Assembly: GCA_965652295.1 (NCBI GenBank)
Contig: CBFGTS010000007.1
Span: 128,001-192,000, forward strand
Direction of reading: 5' to 3'
Source: an uncultured Haloferula sp.
GTDB lineage: Bacteria; Verrucomicrobiota; Verrucomicrobiia; Verrucomicrobiales; Akkermansiaceae
DNA length: 64,000 nt
Positions 45,802 through 56,238 of the stretch are shown here, piece by piece. The notes under the pieces are model-generated. The model ran no database searches. It saw only the letters and a program-made list of their open reading frames with translations, and was not told the origin of the DNA. How positions within the stretch are numbered: position 1 is the stretch's first letter; every line of letters begins with the position of its first letter. Position numbers and translations under genes: made by a program.

Positions 45802-46184
45802 GCGACGAGCTGGATCCGTATGCGCCGCCGGCGGATCTGGGAAAGGACGCGCGGGCGGAGAAGGCGGCTTTCAAGGAGCTGGTGGTCGCTTGGGAGAAGC
45901 TGCGGCTCGTTTACAACGCGCTGCTGCTGGTTCCCGGCCTGGCCGTGCTCGGTGCCTATCTGGCGCAGGATCTGATGAGCCTGGGAGCTGCGATTTTCAG
46001 CGGCGTGGCGGTGGCTGTGGGAGCGAACGTGGCATTTCTGTTAGGCCCGCTGGCCGAGCTCTACCTGCGCGGCTTGTTTCGGAATGGCGAAGCGCTCGGC
46101 CGCGGCCGATGGCTGATTTTCGGCGCGGGCCTGGTCGTTTCCGCCGGGGTCTTCGGGATCTCGCTGCTGGTGGCGCTGGCTTGA
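45798..46184 (+). CDS. Hypothetical membrane protein
   Basis: DPYAPP N-terminus, WEKLRLVYN, 3 TM helices. Confidence 0.7.
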   Translation: MSDELDPYAPPADLGKDARAEKAAFKELVVAWEKLRLVYNALLLVPGLAVLGAYLAQDLMSLGAAIFSGVAVAVGANVAFLLGPLAELYLRGLFRNGEALGRGRWLIFGAGLVVSAGVFGISLLVALA

Positions 46185-46326
46185 AGAGAGCGGCGCCGAT
46201 GGAGCGCCGATTATGAAATCGGCACGGATGGTCCTGTGAACCGATATTCTCAAACCATGGTGGGATCGATCTTCGCAGCAGTAGCATGGCCGAGGCCGGG
46301 ATCGTTGTGGACTCCGGCGTTCGGGA
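46100..46326 (+). repeat. Diverged direct repeat, copy A (3' end of upstream gene plus palindromic element)
   Basis: Aligns by eye with 47390-47615; core ggagcgccgattatgaaatcggcacggatggtcc is identical. Confidence 0.85.
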
Positions 46327-46529
46327 AGGTTTCGGACTGTGGAACGGTTTCGCTTCTCGGAAGGAGTAAGTCATCTGCGCCAGGCCGATTTTTAACGATC
46401 CGCCCGTTCTCATCCAATTCATCCTGATTATCGGGTTCATCATGCTTTCGACGTCCTTTGATGCTGTCTGGTTTCTGATAGAGAAACTTTGATTCTTATG
46501 CTGAGTCTTTTCGGGTTTGACATGGAAGG

Positions 46530-47348
46530 ATGATTGTTGGCGGTATCTCCGGCGTGAAAAAGATGATGATTCCCGTGGGTTTGACGGCGCTTCTGACAAA
46601 TGCCGCCGTTGGGACGGTCCTCACTGATTTCAACAGCGGCTCAGTCGTTGCGGATTTCCTGTTCGATGACGTGAACGGGACGTCTATCGAAAGCACGGTG
46701 AACTCGGCGAATGGTTCGCTGACGTGGGACACCGATCTGGACATGGGGGGCGCGACTACGAACGGATCCGGGCAGTTCGACGGGTCGGGCAAGGCCAATA
46801 CCGAGTTCGCTTCTGTCTACGTCGATGTCGCCACCATCACCACCGGAAGGGTGATCGCCCTATTCGAGGTGAGTTGGGACTTCAACCAAACGATTTATAA
46901 CCCGGCGGAGGACGAGGAATTCCGGTTGTCACTGATCACCTTCGATCCTCGTTCCACCTTCGTGACCACGGAGATCTACTTCCAGCGGACATCTGCAGAG
47001 CAGGTGACGCTCTTTGGTAATGCCGTCGGCACGGGGGCCTCAGATACGCCGAACGTGGTCTTCGGGGCAAGTGGTTCGCTCCTAACCCTCTTCGACGTCG
47101 ATCTCGATGCGGATACCGCCGAGCTTTTCTACTCCTCGGACAGCGGCGCCAGCTTCACCTCCGCCGGCTCGGCGGCACTCGATCCCGGCCGAGGTGTCGA
47201 CTCGCTTCGTCTCGTACTGAACGAGGATTTCGGTGACGACACGCTGCTGATCGAGAGAGTCGCACTTTCCGTGGTTCCGGAGCCCTCGGCTCTCATGCTG
47301 GTTTTGACCGGCCTACTTCCGCTGCTGAATCGCCGCCGCTCGGCGTGA
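46530..47348 (+). CDS. PEP-CTERM surface protein
   Basis: Signal peptide and C-terminal VVPEPS-TM-RRRSA; start may be 46554 or 46563. Confidence 0.88.
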   Translation: MIVGGISGVKKMMIPVGLTALLTNAAVGTVLTDFNSGSVVADFLFDDVNGTSIESTVNSANGSLTWDTDLDMGGATTNGSGQFDGSGKANTEFASVYVDVATITTGRVIALFEVSWDFNQTIYNPAEDEEFRLSLITFDPRSTFVTTEIYFQRTSAEQVTLFGNAVGTGASDTPNVVFGASGSLLTLFDVDLDADTAELFYSSDSGASFTSAGSAALDPGRGVDSLRLVLNEDFGDDTLLIERVALSVVPEPSALMLVLTGLLPLLNRRRSA

Positions 47349-47389
47349 TCGGTCTTGCCGAAAGCGGCTTGCCCAGCGCCGGTTCGCAC

Positions 47390-47615
47390 CCGCGGGCGAT
47401 GGCTGACTTTTTCGGCGCGGGTTTGGTCATTTCAACCGGCGTCTCTGGATCTCGCTGCTGCTGGCACTGGCTTGAGGGGAGCGTGATTGGTGGAGCGCCG
47501 ATTATGAAATCGGCACGGATGGTCCCTGAACCGATTTTCTCCAACAAAGGTGGATTCGTCCTCGCAGCGGTAGCATGGGTGCGGTCGACATGGTTGCGAA
47601 CTCCGGCGTTTCGGA
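47390..47615 (+). repeat. Diverged direct repeat, copy B
   Basis: Second copy of 46100-46326, including a frameshifted copy of the 3' end of the 45798-46184 gene. Confidence 0.85.
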
Positions 47616-47669
47616 TGAAGCGGAGGGAAAAGCACTCGTCGTGCTTCTGGTTCGGAGCCTCTGCTGGAT

Positions 47670-48269
47670 TCAGTGCCTTCTGCGTCGCGCCACAACCATG
47701 AGCGCCGAAAGCCCGAGGAGACCAACAGACGCCGGTTCTGGAACCAAGACCTGATCGCTGATCTCAAGCGAAAAGCCACCAAGGTAGGTCGTGCCGCCGT
47801 CGGTATCGTCGGTGAAGGTTCCAACCGTCAGCCACTCATAGGGCAGGGTGGTGGTCAGAGTGGTCACGCCCGAGGCCGAATAGGGTTCATTGAGAGACAT
47901 CACGCCATCGACATAGATTCGGAAGTCATCCTGATTGTCGCCGGTCGAGTCATTGTCCACTTGAATCCCGATGATCGACACAGTGTTCGTGATCGGAATC
48001 GGCGTGGTGAACATGTGATCGCTGTCGCTCGGATCGAAGGTATCGCTGAACGGGTTTCCCGTGAGGCCAAGCCACTGCTCGCCGAACGTGATTCCGTTGG
48101 TCAGCTGCGACGTGTGAGAAGATCCGGTGACGCCGCTTCCTGCGACGGCAACCACGGTGCCGCCGCTTCCGTCCGGGTGGAGCGTGATCGAAAGCGCGGC
48201 GTTTGCTTGGCTGGCTGAGAAAAAAGCTGAAGCGAACGCAATGGTGGGAAGAAGTGAGGATCTGGACAT
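47670..48269 (-). CDS. PEP-CTERM surface protein
   Basis: Signal peptide and C-terminal VPEPAS-TM-RRRH. Confidence 0.88.
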   Translation of the reverse strand: MSRSSLLPTIAFASAFFSASQANAALSITLHPDGSGGTVVAVAGSGVTGSSHTSQLTNGITFGEQWLGLTGNPFSDTFDPSDSDHMFTTPIPITNTVSIIGIQVDNDSTGDNQDDFRIYVDGVMSLNEPYSASGVTTLTTTLPYEWLTVGTFTDDTDGGTTYLGGFSLEISDQVLVPEPASVGLLGLSALMVVARRRRH

Positions 48270-48499
48270 GGGTCGGGATTCTAGACTTGGGGTGGAGGGA
48301 CGGTCAGGCCGTCTTCAAGTCCTATCGCGGACGTCGGGGTGGACATTTCACGTTTCTTAACAAAATTCGCTCTTCGATTGCGCGATTTTGCCGCTTCTCT
48401 ACCGCTTCGATCGGCAATTGCGATGCTGAGTCTGCTCAGATCCTGTCGAATCGGAGGTCCGGAAACGGGCTCACGATCCCATCCCGAAGCGCCGCCCCG

Positions 48500-48583
48500 T
48501 TCTGAGGTGGAAATGATTACCCATCAGCGCCCAGACATGCACCCGCCTCGTGATTTTCACAGGCATGCCCCAGTCGCTCCAAC
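48500..48583 (-). pseudogene. Fragment of REP-associated HUH/Y1 tyrosine transposase (RAYT-like)
   Basis: Manual translation gives LERLGHACENHE, a frameshift, then RVHVWALMGNHFHL, the MxNHxH HUH motif. Confidence 0.7.
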
Positions 48584-48899
48584 CGTGTCACGCGACCACA
48601 ACCGCGTCTCAAGTCGCTCTCGGCGTGAATTCAGAATTCTCGGACCCTCTTTCGCGCGCTGGGATCGGTCGCGACGAGGCGAAGATGGTGAATCGCAGCA
48701 GGAAGGACAATGACGGAAGAGCCCGATTCCGCCTCCTCATTTTTTGGGAAGCAGCGGCCCCGGCCAGGCAATTGGAGCTTCGATAACGTCGCGCATCTCG
48801 GCACACTTCTTCGGCATAGATACGCCCTGGTCGTCAAGAATCCAATCTTGCACGATCCACCCGCTCCATCCGTGTGGATAAAGTGCTTGCGGAAGACGC

Positions 48900-49195
48900 G
48901 GGCAATGGGGGCCCGGCGTCGCCTTGAAACGACGTGATCGGCGTTCGCCACCAGCAGCCGACTCACCGCCGAGGGCACCCGTCCCGGGCGCGGCCCGCGT
49001 GCCATTGATACCGCCAGTTCGAACCGGCCCGTCCGGCTCGATCCGCCCCCGAACGCCCTCGAAGTCAACTTCAAGAAATCCCTTGCGAAGCTCTGGTACT
49101 ACTGACCCCGAACGATTGACGGCGGGGGAGTTGGCGGGGTGCGGAAAGTGGCTGGACGAAGTCACTGCTGGCATCGTTGGTCCGGCGTCGCACCA
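48900..49195 (+). repeat. 296-bp near-identical direct repeat, copy 1
   Basis: Matches 50692-50987 with scattered substitutions. Confidence 0.92.
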
Positions 49196-49199
49196 GGGG

Positions 49200-49348
49200 A
49201 GGGCAGTGCTTGGAGGGGCGGAACGGCTCGGGCTTCGAGCGGGGGGTGATATGACACGAGAGCTGCGGCGGGTGAGGCCGGAGAGGAGCTTGAAAAGAGA
49301 GTTGGAGAGGCTGGACGAAATGCTCAATATCTCGGACCGGCCCCGATC
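49200..49348 (+). pseudogene. Probable C-terminal remnant of a RAYT-like transposase
   Basis: AERLGLR...TRELRR...LKRELERLDEMLNISD helical tail ending in ggaccggcccc; the same terminus recurs at about 51003-51030. Family assignment is by recall only. Confidence 0.45.
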
Positions 49349-49358
49349 GGGGGTCGCC

Positions 49359-49829
49359 TCAATCGCCTTTGGGTTCTGCTTTCTTCGTTTCTAGGTTGGA
49401 ATCCGCGACGTAGTGAACGCCCATCGAGTGTGCCCCAAGTATAACCACCCTCTTGTAGCCAACCTTCAGCATCTGCTTGGTGACCTCGTCAGCTCGCTCA
49501 CGGATGAACTCGTTATCGTCCCACATAACCGTCTTGTCGAAATAGACTACGATCAGAGACTTGTGCTTCTCGTCGGTCAGAAATTGCTCAATTTGATCAA
49601 ATTTGAGCTCAATCGGTGACCGAGTTCCACCTGTGATCACGCCGAGGCCAAGATCGAAATCCCTCGCCTTGTCATATCCGACTACTCTGTCCGCACTCTT
49701 CTCTAGCGTCCACATCGCATCTGCGGTGGCAGCATCTCCGTCGGCGAGAATCGGGTAGAAACCAAGGTTGAGGTCGTCAGCGCAGGCCTGTGAAGCGACT
49801 AATAGCAGTGCCAGAATTGAGCATTTCAT
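49359..49829 (-). CDS. Secreted hypothetical protein, integron-cassette-like
   Basis: Low-GC ORF with signal peptide MKCSILALLL; ATG lies 5 nt after an attC-like GTT core. Confidence 0.7.
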   Translation of the reverse strand: MKCSILALLLVASQACADDLNLGFYPILADGDAATADAMWTLEKSADRVVGYDKARDFDLGLGVITGGTRSPIELKFDQIEQFLTDEKHKSLIVVYFDKTVMWDDNEFIRERADEVTKQMLKVGYKRVVILGAHSMGVHYVADSNLETKKAEPKGD

Positions 49830-49834
49830 TTTTT

Positions 49835-49944
49835 CTGCAACGTAGAAGTAGTGACGCGCTCCACAAGGCGGAAACCGGGCCCCGGACCGAGGATCGAATT
49901 CAACTCGGGCGCTGTAGGGCGTCGCCACCCATGGCTTGCTCTGC
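49835..49944 (-). other. attC-like recombination site
   Basis: Minus strand reads GCAGAGC-aagccatgg...imperfect palindrome...acGTTGCAG, sitting between two same-strand ORFs. Confidence 0.55.
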
Positions 49945-50382
49945 TCGTTTGGTTTTGGATGTGAGGTGCCGCTGAACGAGTGCGCTGAAGAAGCCTGTTG
50001 CGCCTCCACAGATAGCAGCTAGAAGCCAGAGAAGGCTGAATGGATAGGCGCTGTTGAATCCACTACGACCCGCCATGATGAGAAGCCCCGCCACTGCGAA
50101 TAGCGGAATGCAAACCCACGGCCTCCAAAACACGCTGGCAGGGTGGACGAAGAGGAACAACGGAAGGACGAGAAGTAACCAGGTGAGGCCGACATACCAA
50201 ACTGAATACTGGCCGACAGTGAGAGGCATGAAGAACCACTGCGGTGACACGTCCGAGTAGGAGTAGTAGCGCAAAAACAAATAGACGAGCATCACGACCC
50301 ACCCTGCCAGAGCACATCCAAAGCTAAAGATCCCGCGATGAATTGCCCGAACGTCGGAGGGTCTGTTGTGGCGTGTCTTCAT
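49900..50382 (-). CDS. Hypothetical membrane protein, integron-cassette-like
   Basis: 4 TM helices, low GC; starts 5 nt after GTTCTGC and reads into the next attC-like site. Confidence 0.65.
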   Translation of the reverse strand: MKTRHNRPSDVRAIHRGIFSFGCALAGWVVMLVYLFLRYYSYSDVSPQWFFMPLTVGQYSVWYVGLTWLLLVLPLFLFVHPASVFWRPWVCIPLFAVAGLLIMAGRSGFNSAYPFSLLWLLAAICGGATGFFSALVQRHLTSKTKRAEQAMGGDALQRPS

Positions 50383-50387
50383 TCCTA

Positions 50388-50504
50388 GCAGAACGTCGAG
50401 GCCTCCTACGCCTGACCGGGGGCGAGGATTCGACTGTGGATTGAAGTTGTAGTGGTCATGGCGGCTGGAGCTGGAGGCGGGTCAGGCGTTAGGAGTCATG
50501 GCTT
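50388..50504 (-). other. attC-like recombination site (outer left box eroded)
   Basis: Minus-strand arms ctcctaacgcctgacc / ggtcaggcgtaggag pair with one unpaired base, followed by cctcgacGTTCTGC. Confidence 0.65.
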
Positions 50505-50691
50505 CCATGGAAGGCAGTCAACAGGGAATTGAAGTTCACTTCAACATTTCTTCACGACAACTGGGACGGACGGATCGCCCCCGGTCCGACCCCGGCGGAC
50601 GACGCCGGAGCACGGACCACGGCCGCAAGGTACTTCGCCACGAGCGCCTGCGCAGGCCGCCGGCCATGATGGCTCGTCTTACCAGTCCGCC

Positions 50692-50987
50692 GGGCAACGG
50701 GGGCACGGCGTCGGCTTGAAACGACGTGATCGGTGTTCGCCACCACCAGCCACCTCACCACCGAGGGCACCCGTCCCGGGCGCGGCCCGCGTGCCATTGA
50801 AACCGCCAGTTCGAACCGGCCCGTCCGGCTCGATCCGCCCCCGAACGCCCTCGAAGTCAACTTCAAGAAATCCCTTGCGAAGCTCTGGTACTACTGACCC
50901 CGAACGATTGACGGCGGGGGAGTTGGCGGGGCGCGGGAAGTGGCTGGATGAAGTCACTGCTGGCATCGTTGGTCCGGCGTCGCACCA
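50692..50987 (+). repeat. 296-bp near-identical direct repeat, copy 2
   Basis: Matches 48900-49195. Confidence 0.92.
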
Positions 50988-51287
50988 ACCGATCCCGATC
51001 AGAAAATGCTCAAAATCTCGGACCGACCCCCAATCCGACCCCCAATCCGGACCGACCCCCAATCAGGAAAACGGCAGGCGAGCCGAATGCTCATGAAAAC
51101 GACCCCATTCAGAGGCAAATCCGCCCGGAAAGTTGAGCGGCAAGTCGCGCACAAGCCATTGATTGTCAGCAGGCCCCCGCGTCCAAAACTACAGAATGCC
51201 TGGCATCTTTTCCTGGCATCTTTTCAGGCATCTTTTCAGGACAATCTGATGCAGGATTACGAGGCGTGTTGAATCACCAAGGTTGAT

Positions 51288-52718
51288 TCACATGTAGAAC
51301 CGGTAGGAGGCTTTGGGCGGATTGCCCTCAGGGAGCCAACGTAGGATGTTTCCTACGGTTCTCGCTGCGGTGATGGTTATGGGCATGGTAGAGTCGATCT
51401 GGACGTTGTTCCAGTTGGTCTTTGAGAGCACCATGAGCTCTTCCATCAATTGCCGCATCCCGGTGTCTTTGCTGGGAATTTTGATTCCGAGCGTTCGTGG
51501 CACGTACATTCCGGGATATTCTTGATAGAAGTCGACGGATCCACGGGTGTAGAGGAATGCGTTTTTCTCATCGGCTTGTAGGTAGGTTCCGCGGAGTGGT
51601 GGATAGTATCCCTCCCGGAAAAGCCGTAAGTTGTCCCGGCTCATTGAGAGGAAGTCGCGGATATCGATTCCTGACGTGTCCAGGGCTTGGTTGAATCCAT
51701 CCAGTTCCCCTTGGCTGTAGGGTGAGGATTTGTGGATGACGACGCGGGCAGGTTGGTGTTTGTGCTCAGCTCGGAAGGCCTTGAGGCAGTCGGTAATGAG
51801 TGCTGCCGAGTCCTCGGGGGTGAGGTGGTATTGTCGGTCGTCTTTTGAAAGAACAGCATCCCGCCCCCGGACTGCGAGCCCGTGGCCGCGTTCGTTGAAA
51901 ACGTTGGCGATGCTGGTTCGGACCTGGCTCTTGTCGGGTGTGACGTAGAAGCTGATTCCAATGTAGCAGGTTTTGTAGTCGGCCTCGGGGCGTGGAACAC
52001 GATATGGGAACCCGCCGGCTTTGTAGTAGAGGGCGGTGTGAAAGTTCCACGCTCTGGTGGCTTCGTCCTGAAGGGTTCGTTGTTTGGAACGCTCGTCTTT
52101 CTCAGCCGACTTTTTCTTTGGGTCGTAGGTCGAGGGTCGAATAACCTGCACGGGTTTCCCGGCCTTCATCGAGAGGCCTTTGACGAGGTCATGGAATTCG
52201 AGCTTGAGCCGGGTTTTGTCCTTGGGGCGTTTGGATTCGGCTTCGTCGAGGTAATTGACCAGCTCCAGTGGCATCGCGAGTAGGATCACGTCTGGTGATT
52301 TGTCTGCGAGTGTTTCGATGCCCTCAGCGAAAACCCTGGCCGCATGTTCGATCCGATTGTCGTAGGGCCAGTCTTTTCCACTACTGGTGTATTCCCGGGC
52401 TGCAAGAGACTGGGTAAGTGATGAGTCGGTGGTGACAGTGGAGCGGAAGCAGCAGCTTTCGTTGAAACCCGGAAATGCGGGAAAGAGGTTTTTCTTTTGG
52501 CTGTCCTTCCGGGGGATGATGTCTCGGCACTTCTCCAACCATTGGGAGGCACCATCGATCGTTTCCTGCGAGCCGATGATGGCCAAGCGGATCTTTTCGG
52601 GTCTGCGATTTTGATCGAGGTCTTGGGGGCCGTAGTCGATCAGGCCATAGCGGATATCGACGTGCTGGCCGCCGTCTCCGAATTCAAGTGGGGGTTCTGG
52701 GATGTGGGAGACTACCAT
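51288..52718 (-). CDS. Short prokaryotic Argonaute (MID-PIWI, catalytically inactive)
   Basis: 476 aa; EPPLEFG N-terminus, FPAFPGF, FHDLVK..VQVI, QDEATRAWNFHTALYYKAGG, CYIGISFY, RVVIHKSS, YPPLRGT, LYTRG, YPGMYVP, LSKTNWN, PIT. No DEDX tetrad is evident. Confidence 0.92.
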   Translation of the reverse strand: MVVSHIPEPPLEFGDGGQHVDIRYGLIDYGPQDLDQNRRPEKIRLAIIGSQETIDGASQWLEKCRDIIPRKDSQKKNLFPAFPGFNESCCFRSTVTTDSSLTQSLAAREYTSSGKDWPYDNRIEHAARVFAEGIETLADKSPDVILLAMPLELVNYLDEAESKRPKDKTRLKLEFHDLVKGLSMKAGKPVQVIRPSTYDPKKKSAEKDERSKQRTLQDEATRAWNFHTALYYKAGGFPYRVPRPEADYKTCYIGISFYVTPDKSQVRTSIANVFNERGHGLAVRGRDAVLSKDDRQYHLTPEDSAALITDCLKAFRAEHKHQPARVVIHKSSPYSQGELDGFNQALDTSGIDIRDFLSMSRDNLRLFREGYYPPLRGTYLQADEKNAFLYTRGSVDFYQEYPGMYVPRTLGIKIPSKDTGMRQLMEELMVLSKTNWNNVQIDSTMPITITAARTVGNILRWLPEGNPPKASYRFYM

Positions 52719-54082
52719 AGTTCAGGTTGGTTCGGATCTTCGCTAGGTTCGGTCTCATCGTCGTCGTCATCCTCTTCGCTAAGTAGTTCAGCGATTCCAG
52801 TTCGTTGCCATGCATTGTCGTCGATTCCGGTGCCCAGCTCAAATTGAGCGGGCGGATCGAATGAAATAAGGTCGTAGCGTTTGGTGAGGTCACGGTCAGT
52901 GAAGATTGCTCGCCATAGCAAGAGGCTTCCTCGAACTGACGGATGGCGCTCTATTTGTTTGATTCCAGAGAGCAACTTCTCGGAGTTCCAGTATTCGGCG
53001 CGGCCGTCACTGGTAAAAAAGTAGGTTGGGGTGACTTCGAGGAACCATTTTCCACCGAGCCGCACGAAATTGGTGATAGCGGCTTTGTGACGGAAGTATC
53101 CCTCTCCCTCGTTACGATTTGAGGGGTGCCATTCGGCTGCCGACTGGGTGCCCGATTTCTGTAGCGACTTGGCCCTAATTTTACGCGGGTCTTTTTTGCT
53201 CTCCCAGATGAAGTAGTTGAGTTTCTTTTCCCCGTAATAGGCGACCTTTTGTTCGAATAGGTATTGTTTGAGGCAGAGGTTGAGCAAGTGGACGAAATGC
53301 CGTTTAAGATCTGGGTCGTCGGCAAGCGCCCAGTCTTCAGAGGAATTTTGTTCTATGGTGCCCGCTTCAACGAGTCGATTGAGCGGCCCATTGTTCAGGT
53401 CGAGGAAAGAGTAGACGGTTTCACTATTCAGGAAAAACTCCCTGAGGTGCAGGTTGTTTCCTGGGAGTTCTTTCAGTTCTTGGTAGAACCTTTCCCGGTC
53501 TCGATATTTCGCGGTTGCCGACCAGATCGTTTCGGGAAAGCTGGCGACAGGAAATAGGTTCGAGATGAGTTTCTCTTTCTTTGGAAGCGGGCCTAGGTGA
53601 CTACCCCCGCCGGGCTTTGCCAGGTCTGCGAGGAGTTGCGCTGCCGAGCTATCGAATTTGTCAGCCGATTTGTCGAAACGGACGGTATTTGTGTCCTTGT
53701 TTTTTGGGTTGTCGAAGTAGGCTTTGATGTCCTTCCAGTAGGCCTCTTCAGTGCTCGGTTTGCAGACGATGAGGATGACCGGCACGTTGCTGTTCAGCCA
53801 GTAGTCGATGTCGGGTGGGCTACAGGTGAAAGAAAATGCGTTCTGCGAGTTGGATTGGAATTCAGTCGAAGTCGCTTTGACTTGGGCGTGGATTACCCGG
53901 CCGGTAGCTACGCGACTTGCGGATTCAACGATTTCAATGGTGCCGTCGATGCCTTGGTCGATGTTGGTAGGGTTCCATGCAAACCCCATGTCGAGTACGG
54001 CCTGTTCGACAAGATTGACCCCTTGCTGCCCAGTCAAACCGGTCAGCCCGAATTTCTTTCGGCGGTGGGAACGTTTGCGCAT
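52712..54082 (-). CDS. DUF4365 PD-(D/E)XK nuclease-APAZ effector partner of the short pAgo
   Basis: N-terminal DQGIDGTIE...HAQVKAT...IDYWL..NVPVILI (DUF4365-like). C-terminal EKLISNL...RHKA...FVRLGGKWFLEVTPTYFFTSDG (APAZ-like). Overlaps the pAgo start by 7 nt. Confidence 0.85.
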   Translation of the reverse strand: MRKRSHRRKKFGLTGLTGQQGVNLVEQAVLDMGFAWNPTNIDQGIDGTIEIVESASRVATGRVIHAQVKATSTEFQSNSQNAFSFTCSPPDIDYWLNSNVPVILIVCKPSTEEAYWKDIKAYFDNPKNKDTNTVRFDKSADKFDSSAAQLLADLAKPGGGSHLGPLPKKEKLISNLFPVASFPETIWSATAKYRDRERFYQELKELPGNNLHLREFFLNSETVYSFLDLNNGPLNRLVEAGTIEQNSSEDWALADDPDLKRHFVHLLNLCLKQYLFEQKVAYYGEKKLNYFIWESKKDPRKIRAKSLQKSGTQSAAEWHPSNRNEGEGYFRHKAAITNFVRLGGKWFLEVTPTYFFTSDGRAEYWNSEKLLSGIKQIERHPSVRGSLLLWRAIFTDRDLTKRYDLISFDPPAQFELGTGIDDNAWQRTGIAELLSEEDDDDDETEPSEDPNQPELW

Positions 54083-54089
54083 TTGTATT

Positions 54090-54323
54090 TTACCCGGTGG
54101 CGATTTTGACGAGGACGGCTTCGATCACGGCGATGCTCATGGACTTCCCGGAGTCACGGATGGAGGACAGGGCACGTTTCCAGCGGGAGTCGCTGCGTGC
54201 GTTTTCTAGGAACTGGTGGCCTCGGTAGGTCAGGTCAGTGACCCGAAAAATGGACGGGAATCCTTGCTCGTCTCCGGGCGAGGGTTCAATCCCCGTTTCT
54301 CCGATTCTGCTTCTTTCTACCAT
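54090..54323 (-). CDS. DUF2513-like small protein, probably 5'-truncated
   Basis: LTYRGHQFLENARSDSRW motif; stop codon 7 nt before the nuclease-APAZ start. Confidence 0.55.
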   Translation of the reverse strand: MVERSRIGETGIEPSPGDEQGFPSIFRVTDLTYRGHQFLENARSDSRWKRALSSIRDSGKSMSIAVIEAVLVKIATG

Positions 54324-54739
54324 GGTGCGGAGTCGTAATAAGCAATACCTGCGGCTCTGTCGTATATGATAGTCTCGCCCCCGCCATCACTCTCGATCCT
54401 CTGGTAGATGAGGCCCGACCTTGCAGTCTTCGATCCATGGTCAGGTACTCCGGCAGGTCTCTTCGAAGAATCACCGAAAACATCACCTTCGTATGCGATC
54501 GGTTCAATGATTTCGGCAAATTCCCTCGGAGCGAACAACGAGCGAAATTCGATCTCTGAAATCATAAATTTCGCAATCCTACTGTGTCCATCATCCCAGT
54601 AGTGAATCGCAGAGGCGCTTTGCGGTAAGCTGAGAAACGTGACTTCACTGATCGATGCATCTGAAGAGGTTCGTGGTGGTGCTCCTTTACAACCGAAGAA
54701 GATAAACGTAGCTAAAAGGATAGCGCCAAAATCCTTCAT
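54317..54739 (-). CDS. Hypothetical lipoprotein, cassette-like
   Basis: Lipobox-like FFGC after a hydrophobic leader; low GC; followed by aagaaGCAGAAT. Confidence 0.65.
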   Translation of the reverse strand: MKDFGAILLATFIFFGCKGAPPRTSSDASISEVTFLSLPQSASAIHYWDDGHSRIAKFMISEIEFRSLFAPREFAEIIEPIAYEGDVFGDSSKRPAGVPDHGSKTARSGLIYQRIESDGGGETIIYDRAAGIAYYDSAPW

Positions 54740-54984
54740 TTCTTGCAAAGTTTTTATTCGTAGGGTCGAGGCTGGTTATATCCAGCGACTCTTTTTCGGG
54801 AGAGTGGCTGGAAATGCTTGATTCACAAGGATTTTTCCGGGCTGAGTGCGTGTATCGGCTGAGGTAGGAGTGTGTTTCAGGGGATGGAAGCGGGAGGGTG
54901 ATATAGGCGGTCTTCGGCCGATGGTGGGGTGCCGCGGAGTCGGGTAATGACGATCGTCGCAGGGACACTCCGCGTCACCCGGGA

Positions 54985-55100
54985 TGCATTCACAACCATG
55001 CCGGCCGCGGGCATGCTACCGCTGCGGGGATAGATTCCGACATTTCGGGTGAGATGGAGAGGCGGGGACCATGCCATGCCGATTTCATAATCGGCGCTCC
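54985..55100 (-). repeat. Inverted copy of the ~120-bp element found at 46201 and 47492
   Basis: Reverse complement reads ggagcgccgattatgaaatcggca..atggtccc...cgcagcggtagcatg...catggttgtgaa, colinear with the left copies. Confidence 0.8.
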
Positions 55101-55118
55101 GTGAAGGGCGCTCGGTGG

Positions 55119-56102
55119 TCAACGCTCCAGGGCCTGGACGATGATCCGGGCGACTTCGGTGCCGGAGTAGTCGCGGTGGTTGCGTTCCCAGCCTTTGCGG
55201 GCGATGGCGTTGCGGGCGTCGCGGTCGGCGGCGAAATGGCGGACTTTTTCGGCAAGGTCGTCGATGCCATCGAAATAGACGATCTCGTCCTCGGCGTAGA
55301 GTTTCTCAAGTCCGGCTCCGCGCGGGGTGAGGGTCAGGATGCCGTTGCCCATCAGCTCGGCGATGCGGGAGGACGAGTAGAGTTCGACGTCGCTGCGGCG
55401 GCTGAGATTGAGCGCCATCTTGGAGTGGCGGATCACCTGCTCCTTTTCCCAGCCCATGATGAGCGGTTGATCGAGGCAGCCGTAGTAGCCGACGTCCAGG
55501 CCGGGGAGCTTGTCGCGCAGCTCGGCGAGGAAGGCTCGGCGCTCGGGCTGGCCTTTGTCGCGACCGAAGAAGAGGAGGTCGTGCCGCATCTCCGTTTCCG
55601 GGGTTTCGAAGGAGCGGTGGCACTCGATGCCGGCATCGACGGCGCTGGGGATGAAATGGGTGGGGCAGCCGGGACTGGTGAACGACTCCAGCAGCGGGCC
55701 GCCGGTGGAGCAGAAAAGCCCGTCGAGCAGCGGAGCGCGGTCGCGCAGGTGCTGCGTGGCTTCGGCATCCCAGAGGGGATCGACGTACCAGAGGCCGATG
55801 CGGATGTGGGGGAGGAGGTCCCGGATTTCGCGCAGCGTCGCGGGCGAAATCCACTGGGCGTGGCCGAGAATCAGCAGGTCCGGGTGGACGTTGCGGCAGG
55901 TCTCGATGAGCGCCTTGTTGGCTTTCTTTTTCCCGAAACTCTTGCTGCCGGTGGGCGAGAGCATCCGCGCGCGGTCGTTCAGGGAGAAGGTGTAAACGAA
56001 ATGCCCGAGGCGGATGAGGCCGTGGTGGATTTTCTGGTCCTGATTCCAGAGGTGTGCGCCGTCCTTGTCGAACTGGAGGTTGCAGGCGTGAACGATGCGC
56101 AT
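55119..56102 (-). CDS. Glycosyltransferase (CgeB/GT-B-like)
   Basis: WYVDP, SKMALNLSR, YSSSRIAE..GNG, EIVYF, IARKG. Confidence 0.8.
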   Translation of the reverse strand: MRIVHACNLQFDKDGAHLWNQDQKIHHGLIRLGHFVYTFSLNDRARMLSPTGSKSFGKKKANKALIETCRNVHPDLLILGHAQWISPATLREIRDLLPHIRIGLWYVDPLWDAEATQHLRDRAPLLDGLFCSTGGPLLESFTSPGCPTHFIPSAVDAGIECHRSFETPETEMRHDLLFFGRDKGQPERRAFLAELRDKLPGLDVGYYGCLDQPLIMGWEKEQVIRHSKMALNLSRRSDVELYSSSRIAELMGNGILTLTPRGAGLEKLYAEDEIVYFDGIDDLAEKVRHFAADRDARNAIARKGWERNHRDYSGTEVARIIVQALER

Positions 56103-56151
56103 GGGCGGAGGCTAGGCTGACGATCGGCGACCTGCCAAGTTTCGGGAAATT

Positions 56152-56238
56152 GGGACCGGGATGGATAGGATGGATGGGATTTCAAAAATGATCAGCCGGG
56201 ATCCCGACCATCCTTTCGATCCTATCCATCCTGATCCA
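56152..56238. repeat. Nonamer-array inverted repeat element
   Basis: gggatggataggatggatgggat ... atcctatccatcctgatcc; same family as 62794-62886. Confidence 0.7.

What the first reader, a model, noticed from the sequence alone, without database searches (positions are those of the whole stretch)
51288..54082. Intact short-Argonaute defence operon with a DUF4365 nuclease-APAZ effector (SPARDA-like)
Seen: two overlapping low-GC genes. One is a 456-aa protein with a D-x-G-I-D...Q-x-K nuclease motif and an APAZ-like C-half. The other is a 476-aa MID-PIWI-only Argonaute whose catalytic positions are substituted (GISFY, HKSS). Established: short pAgos form heterodimers with effector-APAZ proteins (TIR in SPARTA, SIR2 in SPARSA, DUF4365/restriction-like nuclease in SPARDA) and trigger collateral activity on guide-directed target recognition. 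Inference: this is a working anti-plasmid/anti-phage nuclease system in a verrucomicrobial host. The two frames are open although neighbouring mobile DNA is decayed. The effector has a basic N-tail and a strongly acidic C-tail (EEDDDDDETE) that could be regulatory.
Basis: partly seen in the sequence, partly recalled or inferred. Interest (0 to 1): 0.85.

Follow-up and report, generated by a model that had tools for sequence, protein, structure and literature searches.

The report
Ordinary SPARDA Argonaute-nuclease defence operon
Two intact overlapping genes encode a known kind of bacterial immune system, in which a non-cutting Argonaute spots invading DNA and switches on a partner nuclease that destroys the cell's DNA; this is another copy of a well-studied system, here stranded among decayed mobile DNA.

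Summary
52712-54082(-) encodes a DUF4365/DREN-APAZ protein (Pfam E 3.7e-31; catalytic D42/D46/Q67/K69 match E37/D41/Q60/K62 of NbaSPARDA). 51288-52718(-) encodes a MID-PIWI short Argonaute (PADLOC pAgo_I E 1.9e-156; fold TM 0.86-0.91 to Eae, Xau and Nba SPARDA Argonautes). Both frames are open, under purifying selection (dN/dS 0.06-0.14, dS near saturation) and low in GC (0.54 vs genome 0.63). This is a new member of SPARDA, a family with crystal and cryo-EM structures and in vivo data. The 'regulatory tails' are family features: the acidic C-tail is the known occupant of the nucleic-acid groove. One real difference: the guide pocket is HK-type (E174/H176/K180/R194), like CrtSPARTA, whereas the three solved SPARDAs are RK-type. 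HK is the rule among its homologues and CrtSPARTA still binds 5'-A guides. Context: the operon is not an integron cassette. It lies in a decayed cassette array (attI-like leader, broken attC sites, IS1111 end, RAYT remnants). Its upstream DUF2513 gene lost its 5' half, so the native promoter may be gone; expression is untested. Low interest.

The parts
52712..54082 (-). DREN(DUF4365)-APAZ effector gene, 456 aa (P0001)
   Evidence: Pfam PF14280 E 3.7e-31; PADLOC Aga_REase-PNTD1-PNTD2 E 1.6e-122; PDB 9QBP_A, 9QBQ_A, 9JSB_D at E 2e-47 to 1e-41
53876..53959 (-). PD-(D/E)XK active site codons D42, D46, Q67, K69
   Evidence: Align to Nba E37/D41/Q60/K62 (catalytic roles from PMC12205087); D46 and Q67 in 120 of 120, K69 in 118 of 120, D/E42 in 120 of 120 sequences
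52715..52777 (-). Acidic C-terminal tail of the effector (aa 436-456)
   Evidence: Net charge -12 in last 30 aa, median -7 in 120 sequences; described as groove-occupying tail in XauSPARDA
51288..52718 (-). Short pAgo gene (MID-PIWI only), 476 aa (P0002)
   Evidence: PADLOC pAgo_I E 1.9e-156; PDB 9QBP_B E 1e-95; model pLDDT 87.1, TM 0.86-0.91 to the top SPARDA Argonaute chains
52137..52199 (-). HK-type guide 5'-end pocket: E174, F175, H176, K180, R194 (with Q217, N225, K233 further on)
   Evidence: Alignments to Nba/Xau/Eae (N-F-R...K, W) and to CrtSPARTA (Q-F-H...K, R); H176 in 114 of 121 sequences
54090..54323 (-). 77-aa frame holding the 3' half of a DUF2513 gene; its ATG overlaps the upstream cassette's stop by 7 nt and its stop lies 7 nt before the effector ATG
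   Evidence: Pfam DUF2513 E 1.7e-7, profile 64-98 only; 77% identical over 61 aa to the C-half of the full 116-aa gene upstream of SPARDA in L030; coordinates
54317..54748 (-). Integron-cassette-like ORF (143 aa), followed by a 6-nt attC R''-like stub at 54305-54310
   Evidence: No family hit; follows the attI-like leader; stub compared with the intact attC on contig C18. attC/attI names rest on recalled integron consensus
54749..54964 (-). attI-like leader; four more copies in the genome, one downstream of a broken integron-type integrase on C18
51199..51240 (+). 12-13-bp tandem repeats of the kind found upstream of RAYT (Y1_Tnp) genes in the genus
   Evidence: Y1_Tnp E 2.6e-11 for the gene beside one such repeat
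50691..51030 (+). RAYT-associated remnant (second copy at 48899-49344; RAYT N-terminal scrap at 48504-48545)
   Evidence: 96% direct repeat; tblastn of the RAYT-like ORF of contig C20 hits 49008-49331 E 5e-8 and 48504-48545 E 0.003
50502..50550 (-). Right end of an IS110/IS1111-like element that inserts in attC sites; transposase and left end absent from the window
   Evidence: 81-88% matches in 4 of 150 other genomes of the order, downstream of IS110-type transposase ORFs in L077-L079 (family name recalled from the sequence); no left end in window
50388..50501 (-). attC site lacking its R'' box, followed by two cassette-like ORFs (49900-50382; 49359-49829)
   Evidence: 78% to the intact C18 attC, which folds as a full hairpin, z -3.3, while the window copy gives z -1.5

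Best explanation
A canonical two-gene SPARDA (clade S2B). The short pAgo binds a short RNA guide in its MID pocket, probably 5'-phosphorylated, but cannot cut. [quoted passage not shown] Target pairing drives filament assembly and DREN tetramer formation, and the PD-(D/E)XK site then degrades DNA non-specifically, killing or arresting the cell (anti-plasmid, possibly anti-phage). Shown here: genes, domains, residues, fold, selection, predicted heterodimer. Inferred from Nba/Xau/Eae/Tmu: guide type, filament, collateral cleavage, cell death. The operon came in horizontally and now lies in a decayed integron-cassette region.
For: Profile and structure hits. All four catalytic positions are kept. 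The Argonaute departs from none of 121 columns conserved in >=90% of 120 homologues; the effector departs from 5 of 70, none catalytic. dN/dS 0.057-0.074 (Ago) and 0.089-0.136 (effector) against L030 and L025; window branch 0.085 and 0.131 (pS 0.66-0.73, near saturation). Predicted complex scored 0.84, best of 3 controls 0.00; this mark was reached by 116 of 157 solved complexes and 2 of 215 mismatched pairs; runs agree in at least 57% of contacts, partner pLDDT at least 78. Like complexes are solved, so this shows likeness only. The same gene pair occurs in L025, L030, L073, L074. Mechanism from PMC12205087 and bioRxiv 2025.04.08.647717.
Against: No expression evidence. The upstream DUF2513 gene has lost its 5' half, so the operon's own promoter may be deleted; the one sigma70-like match nearby is at chance level (1 found, 2.0 expected). 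dN/dS reports long-term history, not the present copy. No Pfam Piwi hit. Identity to solved SPARDA Argonautes is only 31-35%, and the guide pocket differs from theirs. Xau and Eae SPARDA gave no robust phage protection against 12 phages, so 'anti-phage' is not assured. One contig of run X3 over 51192-51848 has 25 gap letters whose place is not shown; they may lie in the downstream repeats or in the Argonaute.
Confidence: 0.85

Rival explanations
1. A recently silenced relic: the coding sequences are intact but the deletion that cut the upstream DUF2513 gene removed the promoter, so the host does not express the system.
For: DUF2513 is 5'-truncated against L030; every mobile element around it is broken; no promoter above chance.
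Against: The deletion left a coupled chain: cassette ORF, then the 77-aa frame (7-nt overlap), then effector (7-nt gap), then Argonaute (7-nt overlap), all behind an attI-like leader. No inactivating change has appeared; listed contig pieces over the operon from two further studies show 3 differences in 3511 nt (runs were chosen for holding this DNA; 32 of 198 pieces shown).
Confidence: 0.2
2. The operon is a true integron gene cassette, excisable by IntI.
For: It lies in the same orientation between an attI-like leader and attC-bearing cassettes; the genome holds a broken integron-type integrase.
Against: No attC follows the Argonaute stop; RAYT-type repeats do. The downstream attC was broken by an IS1111-like element. 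Close relatives lie in restriction-modification or AAA/WGR islands (L025, L030), with no blastn match to the window's attI or attC sequences.
Confidence: 0.05
3. The effector is a sequence-specific or target-restricted nuclease rather than a collateral one.
For: DUF4365 has a restriction-like fold; only about a third of Argonaute residues are shared with characterised systems.
Against: Nba, Xau, Eae and Tmu DUF4365 systems all cut non-specifically, and the catalytic residues are the same.
Confidence: 0.04

Closest known systems
EaeSPARDA and XauSPARDA (PDB 9QBP, 9QBQ, 9QBL, 9QCC; bioRxiv 10.1101/2025.04.08.647717)
   Same: Gene order, DREN-APAZ plus short pAgo, catalytic acidic-D-Q-K set, acidic C-tail, full-length homology (E 1e-95 Ago, 2e-47 effector), TM 0.86-0.88.
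   Different: 33-35% Argonaute identity; HK pocket with E174 and R194 where they have N-F-R...K and W; first catalytic acid is D, not E. Apo dimer and filament not tested here.
NbaSPARDA (PDB 9JSB, 9JSZ, 9JT2, 9VX1; PMC12205087, PMC12774872)
   Same: Same architecture; D41/Q60/K62 kept; guide contacts R221, Q224, N232, K240 kept as R214, Q217, N225, K233.
   Different: N181, which reads 5'-A, is E174; R183 is H176; W201 is R194; 31-32% identity.
TmuSPARDA / TmuRE-Ago (PMC10810196)
   Same: DUF4365-APAZ plus short pAgo with a Q-x-K active site.
   Different: Prefers 5'-U, 5'-OH guides.
CrtSPARTA (PDB 8IFK and others; PMC9097488)
   Same: Guide pocket Q-F-H-D-x-x-K...R resembles this one; binds 5'-A guides.
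   Different: Effector is a TIR NADase, not a nuclease; 22-24% Argonaute identity.

Membership tests
SPARDA (S2B short pAgo with DREN-APAZ) | Short pAgo with MID and PIWI only, no N or PAZ | tested here: met
   476 aa matched end to end by PADLOC pAgo_I and by 465-485-aa SPARDA Argonaute chains, TM 0.86-0.91. No Pfam Piwi hit.
SPARDA (S2B short pAgo with DREN-APAZ) | PIWI catalytic tetrad absent | tested here: met
   S256 and S331; no Asp at either column in 121 sequences; same GISFY as NbaAgo, which lacks the tetrad. That these columns are the two Asp positions is recalled, not aligned here to an active Argonaute.
SPARDA (S2B short pAgo with DREN-APAZ) | Upstream gene with N-terminal DUF4365 fused to APAZ, same operon | tested here: met
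   PF14280 aa 19-154; PADLOC Aga models incl. PNTD1-PNTD2 region; 9QBL_A (APAZ part only) matches aa 160-429 at E 3e-18; 7-nt overlap.
SPARDA (S2B short pAgo with DREN-APAZ) | Intact PD-(D/E)XK site | tested here: met
   D42/D46/Q67/K69.
SPARDA (S2B short pAgo with DREN-APAZ) | Guide 5'-end pocket residues | tested here: met
   H176, K180, Q217, K233; HK type is one of the two short-pAgo types (bioRxiv 10.1101/366930); differs from the RK type of solved SPARDAs.
SPARDA (S2B short pAgo with DREN-APAZ) | Heterodimer of the two proteins | tested here: inconclusive
   Model supports it: 0.84 vs best control 0.00; mark reached by 116 of 157 solved and 2 of 215 mismatched pairs; but like complexes are solved, so the pass may be from memory.
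SPARDA (S2B short pAgo with DREN-APAZ) | Target-induced filament and collateral nuclease activity | not testable with these tools
   Needs biochemistry.
SPARDA (S2B short pAgo with DREN-APAZ) | Placement in clade S2B by phylogeny | not tested
   No tree built: reference SPARDA sequences were seen only in alignments, not held as proteins. Similarity ranks SPARDA above SPARHA, SPARTA and SPARSA chains.
SPARTA / SPARSA | TIR or SIR2 effector domain | tested here: not met
   Only DUF4365 in Pfam; PADLOC TIR and SIR2 models match the APAZ half alone.
Integron gene cassette | attC site directly after the last gene | tested here: not met
   51150-51290 gives no attC-like hairpin (z -0.74) and holds RAYT-type repeats.

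The most novel reading that the evidence does not exclude
This belongs to an HK-pocket branch of SPARDA (E174/H176/K180/R194) that has no solved structure among the PDB hits and may read a different guide 5' end from the 5'-AU of Nba, Xau and Eae. In this host a deletion may also have put the operon under the leader of a decayed integron array, through a chimeric 77-aa frame that couples translation from the first cassette into the effector.
Probability: 0.25. Interest if true: 0.45.

Novelty: new member of a known kind. Interest (0 to 1): 0.22.

Why it matters
Modestly. SPARDA is already described in vivo, in vitro and structurally. This copy extends it to a probable verrucomicrobial host and offers a natural HK-pocket variant. 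That variant could test how MID-pocket residues set guide 5'-end choice, and might give a nucleic-acid detection enzyme with another guide rule. The locus also shows a defence operon staying intact while the mobile DNA around it decays.

Tried and rejected
1) The repeats at 51199-51240 plus an IHF-like match at 51152-51164 as an integrase att end: rejected. The IHF match (recalled consensus) is at chance level, 31 of 100 shuffles. The repeats lie just upstream of RAYT-like genes in 4 of the 13 other loci examined. 2) The junction near 54283-54304 as a tRNA 3' end: no tRNA in the window; DUF2513 homology runs to within about 11 codons of the attC stub. 3) The operon as cargo inside an IS1111 element: only the right end is present, no left end in the window. 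4) One attC split by the 3.8-kb segment: compatible with the two halves but not shown; the expected bases and IS left end are missing at the upper junction. 5) Expression: no RNA holder listed. 6) Phage carriage: no match in 50,697 phage records. 7) NCBIfam: no hits for 5 of 5 proteins. 8) Tmu and Cme pocket sequences: not found in the Tmu supplement text; bioRxiv supplements are closed and may hold alignments that bear on the HK/RK claim. 9) Earlier scan findings: none returned. 10) A gene-specific sweep: SPARDA pieces show 3 differences in 3511 nt against 42 in 2025 nt for the flank at 55017-56200, but the runs were selected by SPARDA words and the pieces cannot be linked to one strain, so it is a weak hint only. 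11) Literature on Argonaute systems as integron cassettes: one search listed 10 papers, none of whose titles or abstract starts reports one; not an exhaustive check.
Full report
OBSERVATION. Two minus-strand ORFs lie at 52712-54082 (456 aa, P0001) and 51288-52718 (476 aa, P0002), overlapping by 7 nt, both open. GC is 0.522 and 0.554 against 0.635 for the genome; 7 of 1548 windows of equal size are as low, and the wider 46200-55100 stretch is also low at 0.564.

IDENTITY. P0001 matches Pfam DUF4365 (aa 19-154, E 3.7e-31), PADLOC Aga_REase-PNTD1-PNTD2 (E 1.6e-122) and the DREN-APAZ chains of 9QBP, 9QBQ and 9JSB (E 2e-47 to 1e-41). D42, D46, Q67 and K69 align with Nba E37, D41, Q60 and K62, the positions whose substitution lowers or removes activity in Nba and Xau (PMC12205087; bioRxiv 2025.04.08.647717). 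P0002 has no Pfam or NCBIfam hit. It matches PADLOC pAgo_I end to end (E 1.9e-156) and PDB short pAgos (best E 1e-95); a profile of 33 relatives also reaches long Argonautes weakly (EcAgo E 6e-4, KmAgo E 2e-3). Its model (pLDDT 87.1) superposes on Eae, Xau and Nba SPARDA Argonautes with TM 0.86-0.91 for the top ten chains, ahead of SPARHA and SPARTA chains. The predicted complex scored 0.84 against a best control of 0.00; that mark was reached by 116 of 157 solved complexes and 2 of 215 mismatched pairs; the runs agree in at least 57% of contacts and the partner's pLDDT is at least 78. Like complexes are solved, so the pass shows likeness only. Tail residues 436-456 are not named in the interface, which is no evidence either way.

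INTEGRITY. Against the top 120 Argonaute hits (of 3633) the Argonaute keeps 121 of 121 columns conserved at 90%; against the other 119 listed effector hits (of 193) the effector keeps 65 of 70, with departures at S56, G61, A66, S98 and A315, none catalytic. dN/dS against L030 and L025 is 0.057-0.074 for the Argonaute and 0.089-0.136 for the effector, with synonymous sites near saturation. Near-identical DNA (half or more of the words) is held by 5 of 19 listed runs in two studies, with four more at 0.37-0.44 in a third. In the four runs laid, listed pieces over the operon from the two further studies differ at 3 of 3511 nt; one piece has 25 gap letters at an unshown place within 51192-51848; 32 of 198 pieces were shown.

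TAILS. The acidic C-tail is a family feature: 102 of 120 sequences have net charge of -5 or lower in the last 30 residues (median -7, query -12, 8 as acidic or more); 61 of 120 have +3 or more in the first 15 (query +7, 4 as basic or more). So both tails are at the strong end of a normal range. In XauSPARDA the negatively charged tail sits in the nucleic-acid groove and is displaced by the target, and in SPARTA it is autoinhibitory. In Nba the N-terminal K4 contacts substrate DNA.

GUIDE POCKET. The query has E174-F-H176-D-L-V-K180 and R194 where Nba, Xau and Eae have N-F-R-x-x-x-K and W. The Asn contacts the 5' adenine in Xau and Nba. The query's pocket resembles CrtSPARTA, which still binds 5'-A guides (PMC9097488). 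HK is a recognised short-pAgo type (bioRxiv 366930) and occurs in 114 of 121 sequences here. TmuSPARDA prefers 5'-U, 5'-OH guides, but I could not see its sequence nor that of CmeSPARDA. A changed guide rule is possible, not predicted.

DISTRIBUTION. The Argonaute query hits 5 of 34 other genomes of the genus, one at 80%, three at 38-40%, one partial at 27%. The partner is SMEK in L016 and TIR in L018. The effector hits 3 of 300 other genomes of the order at E<=1e-20. Related Argonautes lie on 102 of 72,556 plasmid records and on no phage record. These searches draw on overlapping collections, so hits are not additive. Close relatives lie in islands: L025 beside restriction and Mrr genes, L030 beside AAA and WGR genes. 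A verrucomicrobial host fits PEP-CTERM genes in the window, a named Haloferula record at 80% and Verrucomicrobiota as the commonest phylum in two of the three best clusters for a neighbouring housekeeping gene; no marker-gene test was run.

CONTEXT. Upstream lies the 3' half of a DUF2513 gene, 77% identical over 61 aa to the whole 116-aa gene before SPARDA in L030. It is joined to a 6-nt attC-like stub behind a 143-aa cassette-like ORF and a 216-bp leader that has four more copies in the genome, one downstream of a broken integron-type integrase. The junction is bridged by contigs of runs X1 and X7, so it is not an assembly slip; X1 may be the source sample. Downstream lie RAYT-type repeats and remnants, the right end of an IS1111-like element (such elements target attC sites, PMC11187229), an attC without R'' and two more cassette-like ORFs. 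The attI, attC, IS110 and REP names rest on recalled consensus plus these comparisons. No attC follows the Argonaute, so the operon is not a cassette. The deletion left a frame of 77 aa whose ATG overlaps the cassette stop and whose stop lies 7 nt before the effector start; this could carry translation from the integron leader into SPARDA (inference). No promoter above chance was found.

MECHANISM. By homology: RNA guide loading, ssDNA target pairing, tail displacement, filament assembly, DREN tetramer, non-specific DNA degradation, cell death. None of these steps was tested for this copy. Anti-plasmid action is the safer inference, since Xau and Eae gave no robust protection against 12 phages.

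PAPERS SEEN. bioRxiv 2025.04.08.647717: outline, Results parts 1-3 of 5, section 15, passages. PMC12205087: parts 1-3 of 7. PMC12774872: part 1 of 7. PMC10810196: passages and a supplement search. bioRxiv 2023.06.08.544223, PMC9097488, bioRxiv 366930, PMC11187229: passages only. Other titles: search listings only. bioRxiv supplements were not seen and may bear on the HK/RK claim.

VERDICT. Membership about 0.97; expressed and active in the host about 0.7 (my estimates). Interest 0.22.

Noticed in passing
window 54749-54964; L019 (G000:C18:1505-3001), L020, L021, L022: A 216-bp attI-like leader occurs five times in the genome, each in front of a different ORF; on C18 it lies downstream of a broken integron-type integrase in the same orientation as the cassettes.
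   Followed up: partly
window 50502-50550; L077-L079, L084-L087: An IS110/IS1111-like family of this order with ends ATTAG-ATGAGAAGGCA and TGCCTTCTCATGGAAG inserts just after the R'' box of attC-like sites.
   Followed up: partly
window 51199-51240; L048-L070: GGCATCTTTT tandem repeats occur in 7 of 35 genus genomes, often just upstream of RAYT-like genes and often just behind cargo genes.
   Followed up: partly
window 46190-46234, 47480-47527, 55073-55100: A REP-like 25-28-bp repeat is abundant in this genome and in 5 other genus genomes; copies bracket the low-GC region.
   Followed up: no
window 46530-47348 and 47670-48269: Two PEP-CTERM proteins lie in the same low-GC stretch, with a 220-bp duplication at 46100-46321 and 47390-47610.
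   Followed up: no
L016:8141-11040, L017:8056-10952, L018:7464-10348: Other genomes of the genus carry related short pAgos with SMEK or TIR/SEFIR partners instead of DUF4365, suggesting effector exchange.
   Followed up: partly
L033:86-2050: A HipA-like gene (name recalled from its sequence) whose 3' end is duplicated about 416 bp later, each copy followed by the same non-coding element that lies behind the Argonaute here.
   Followed up: no
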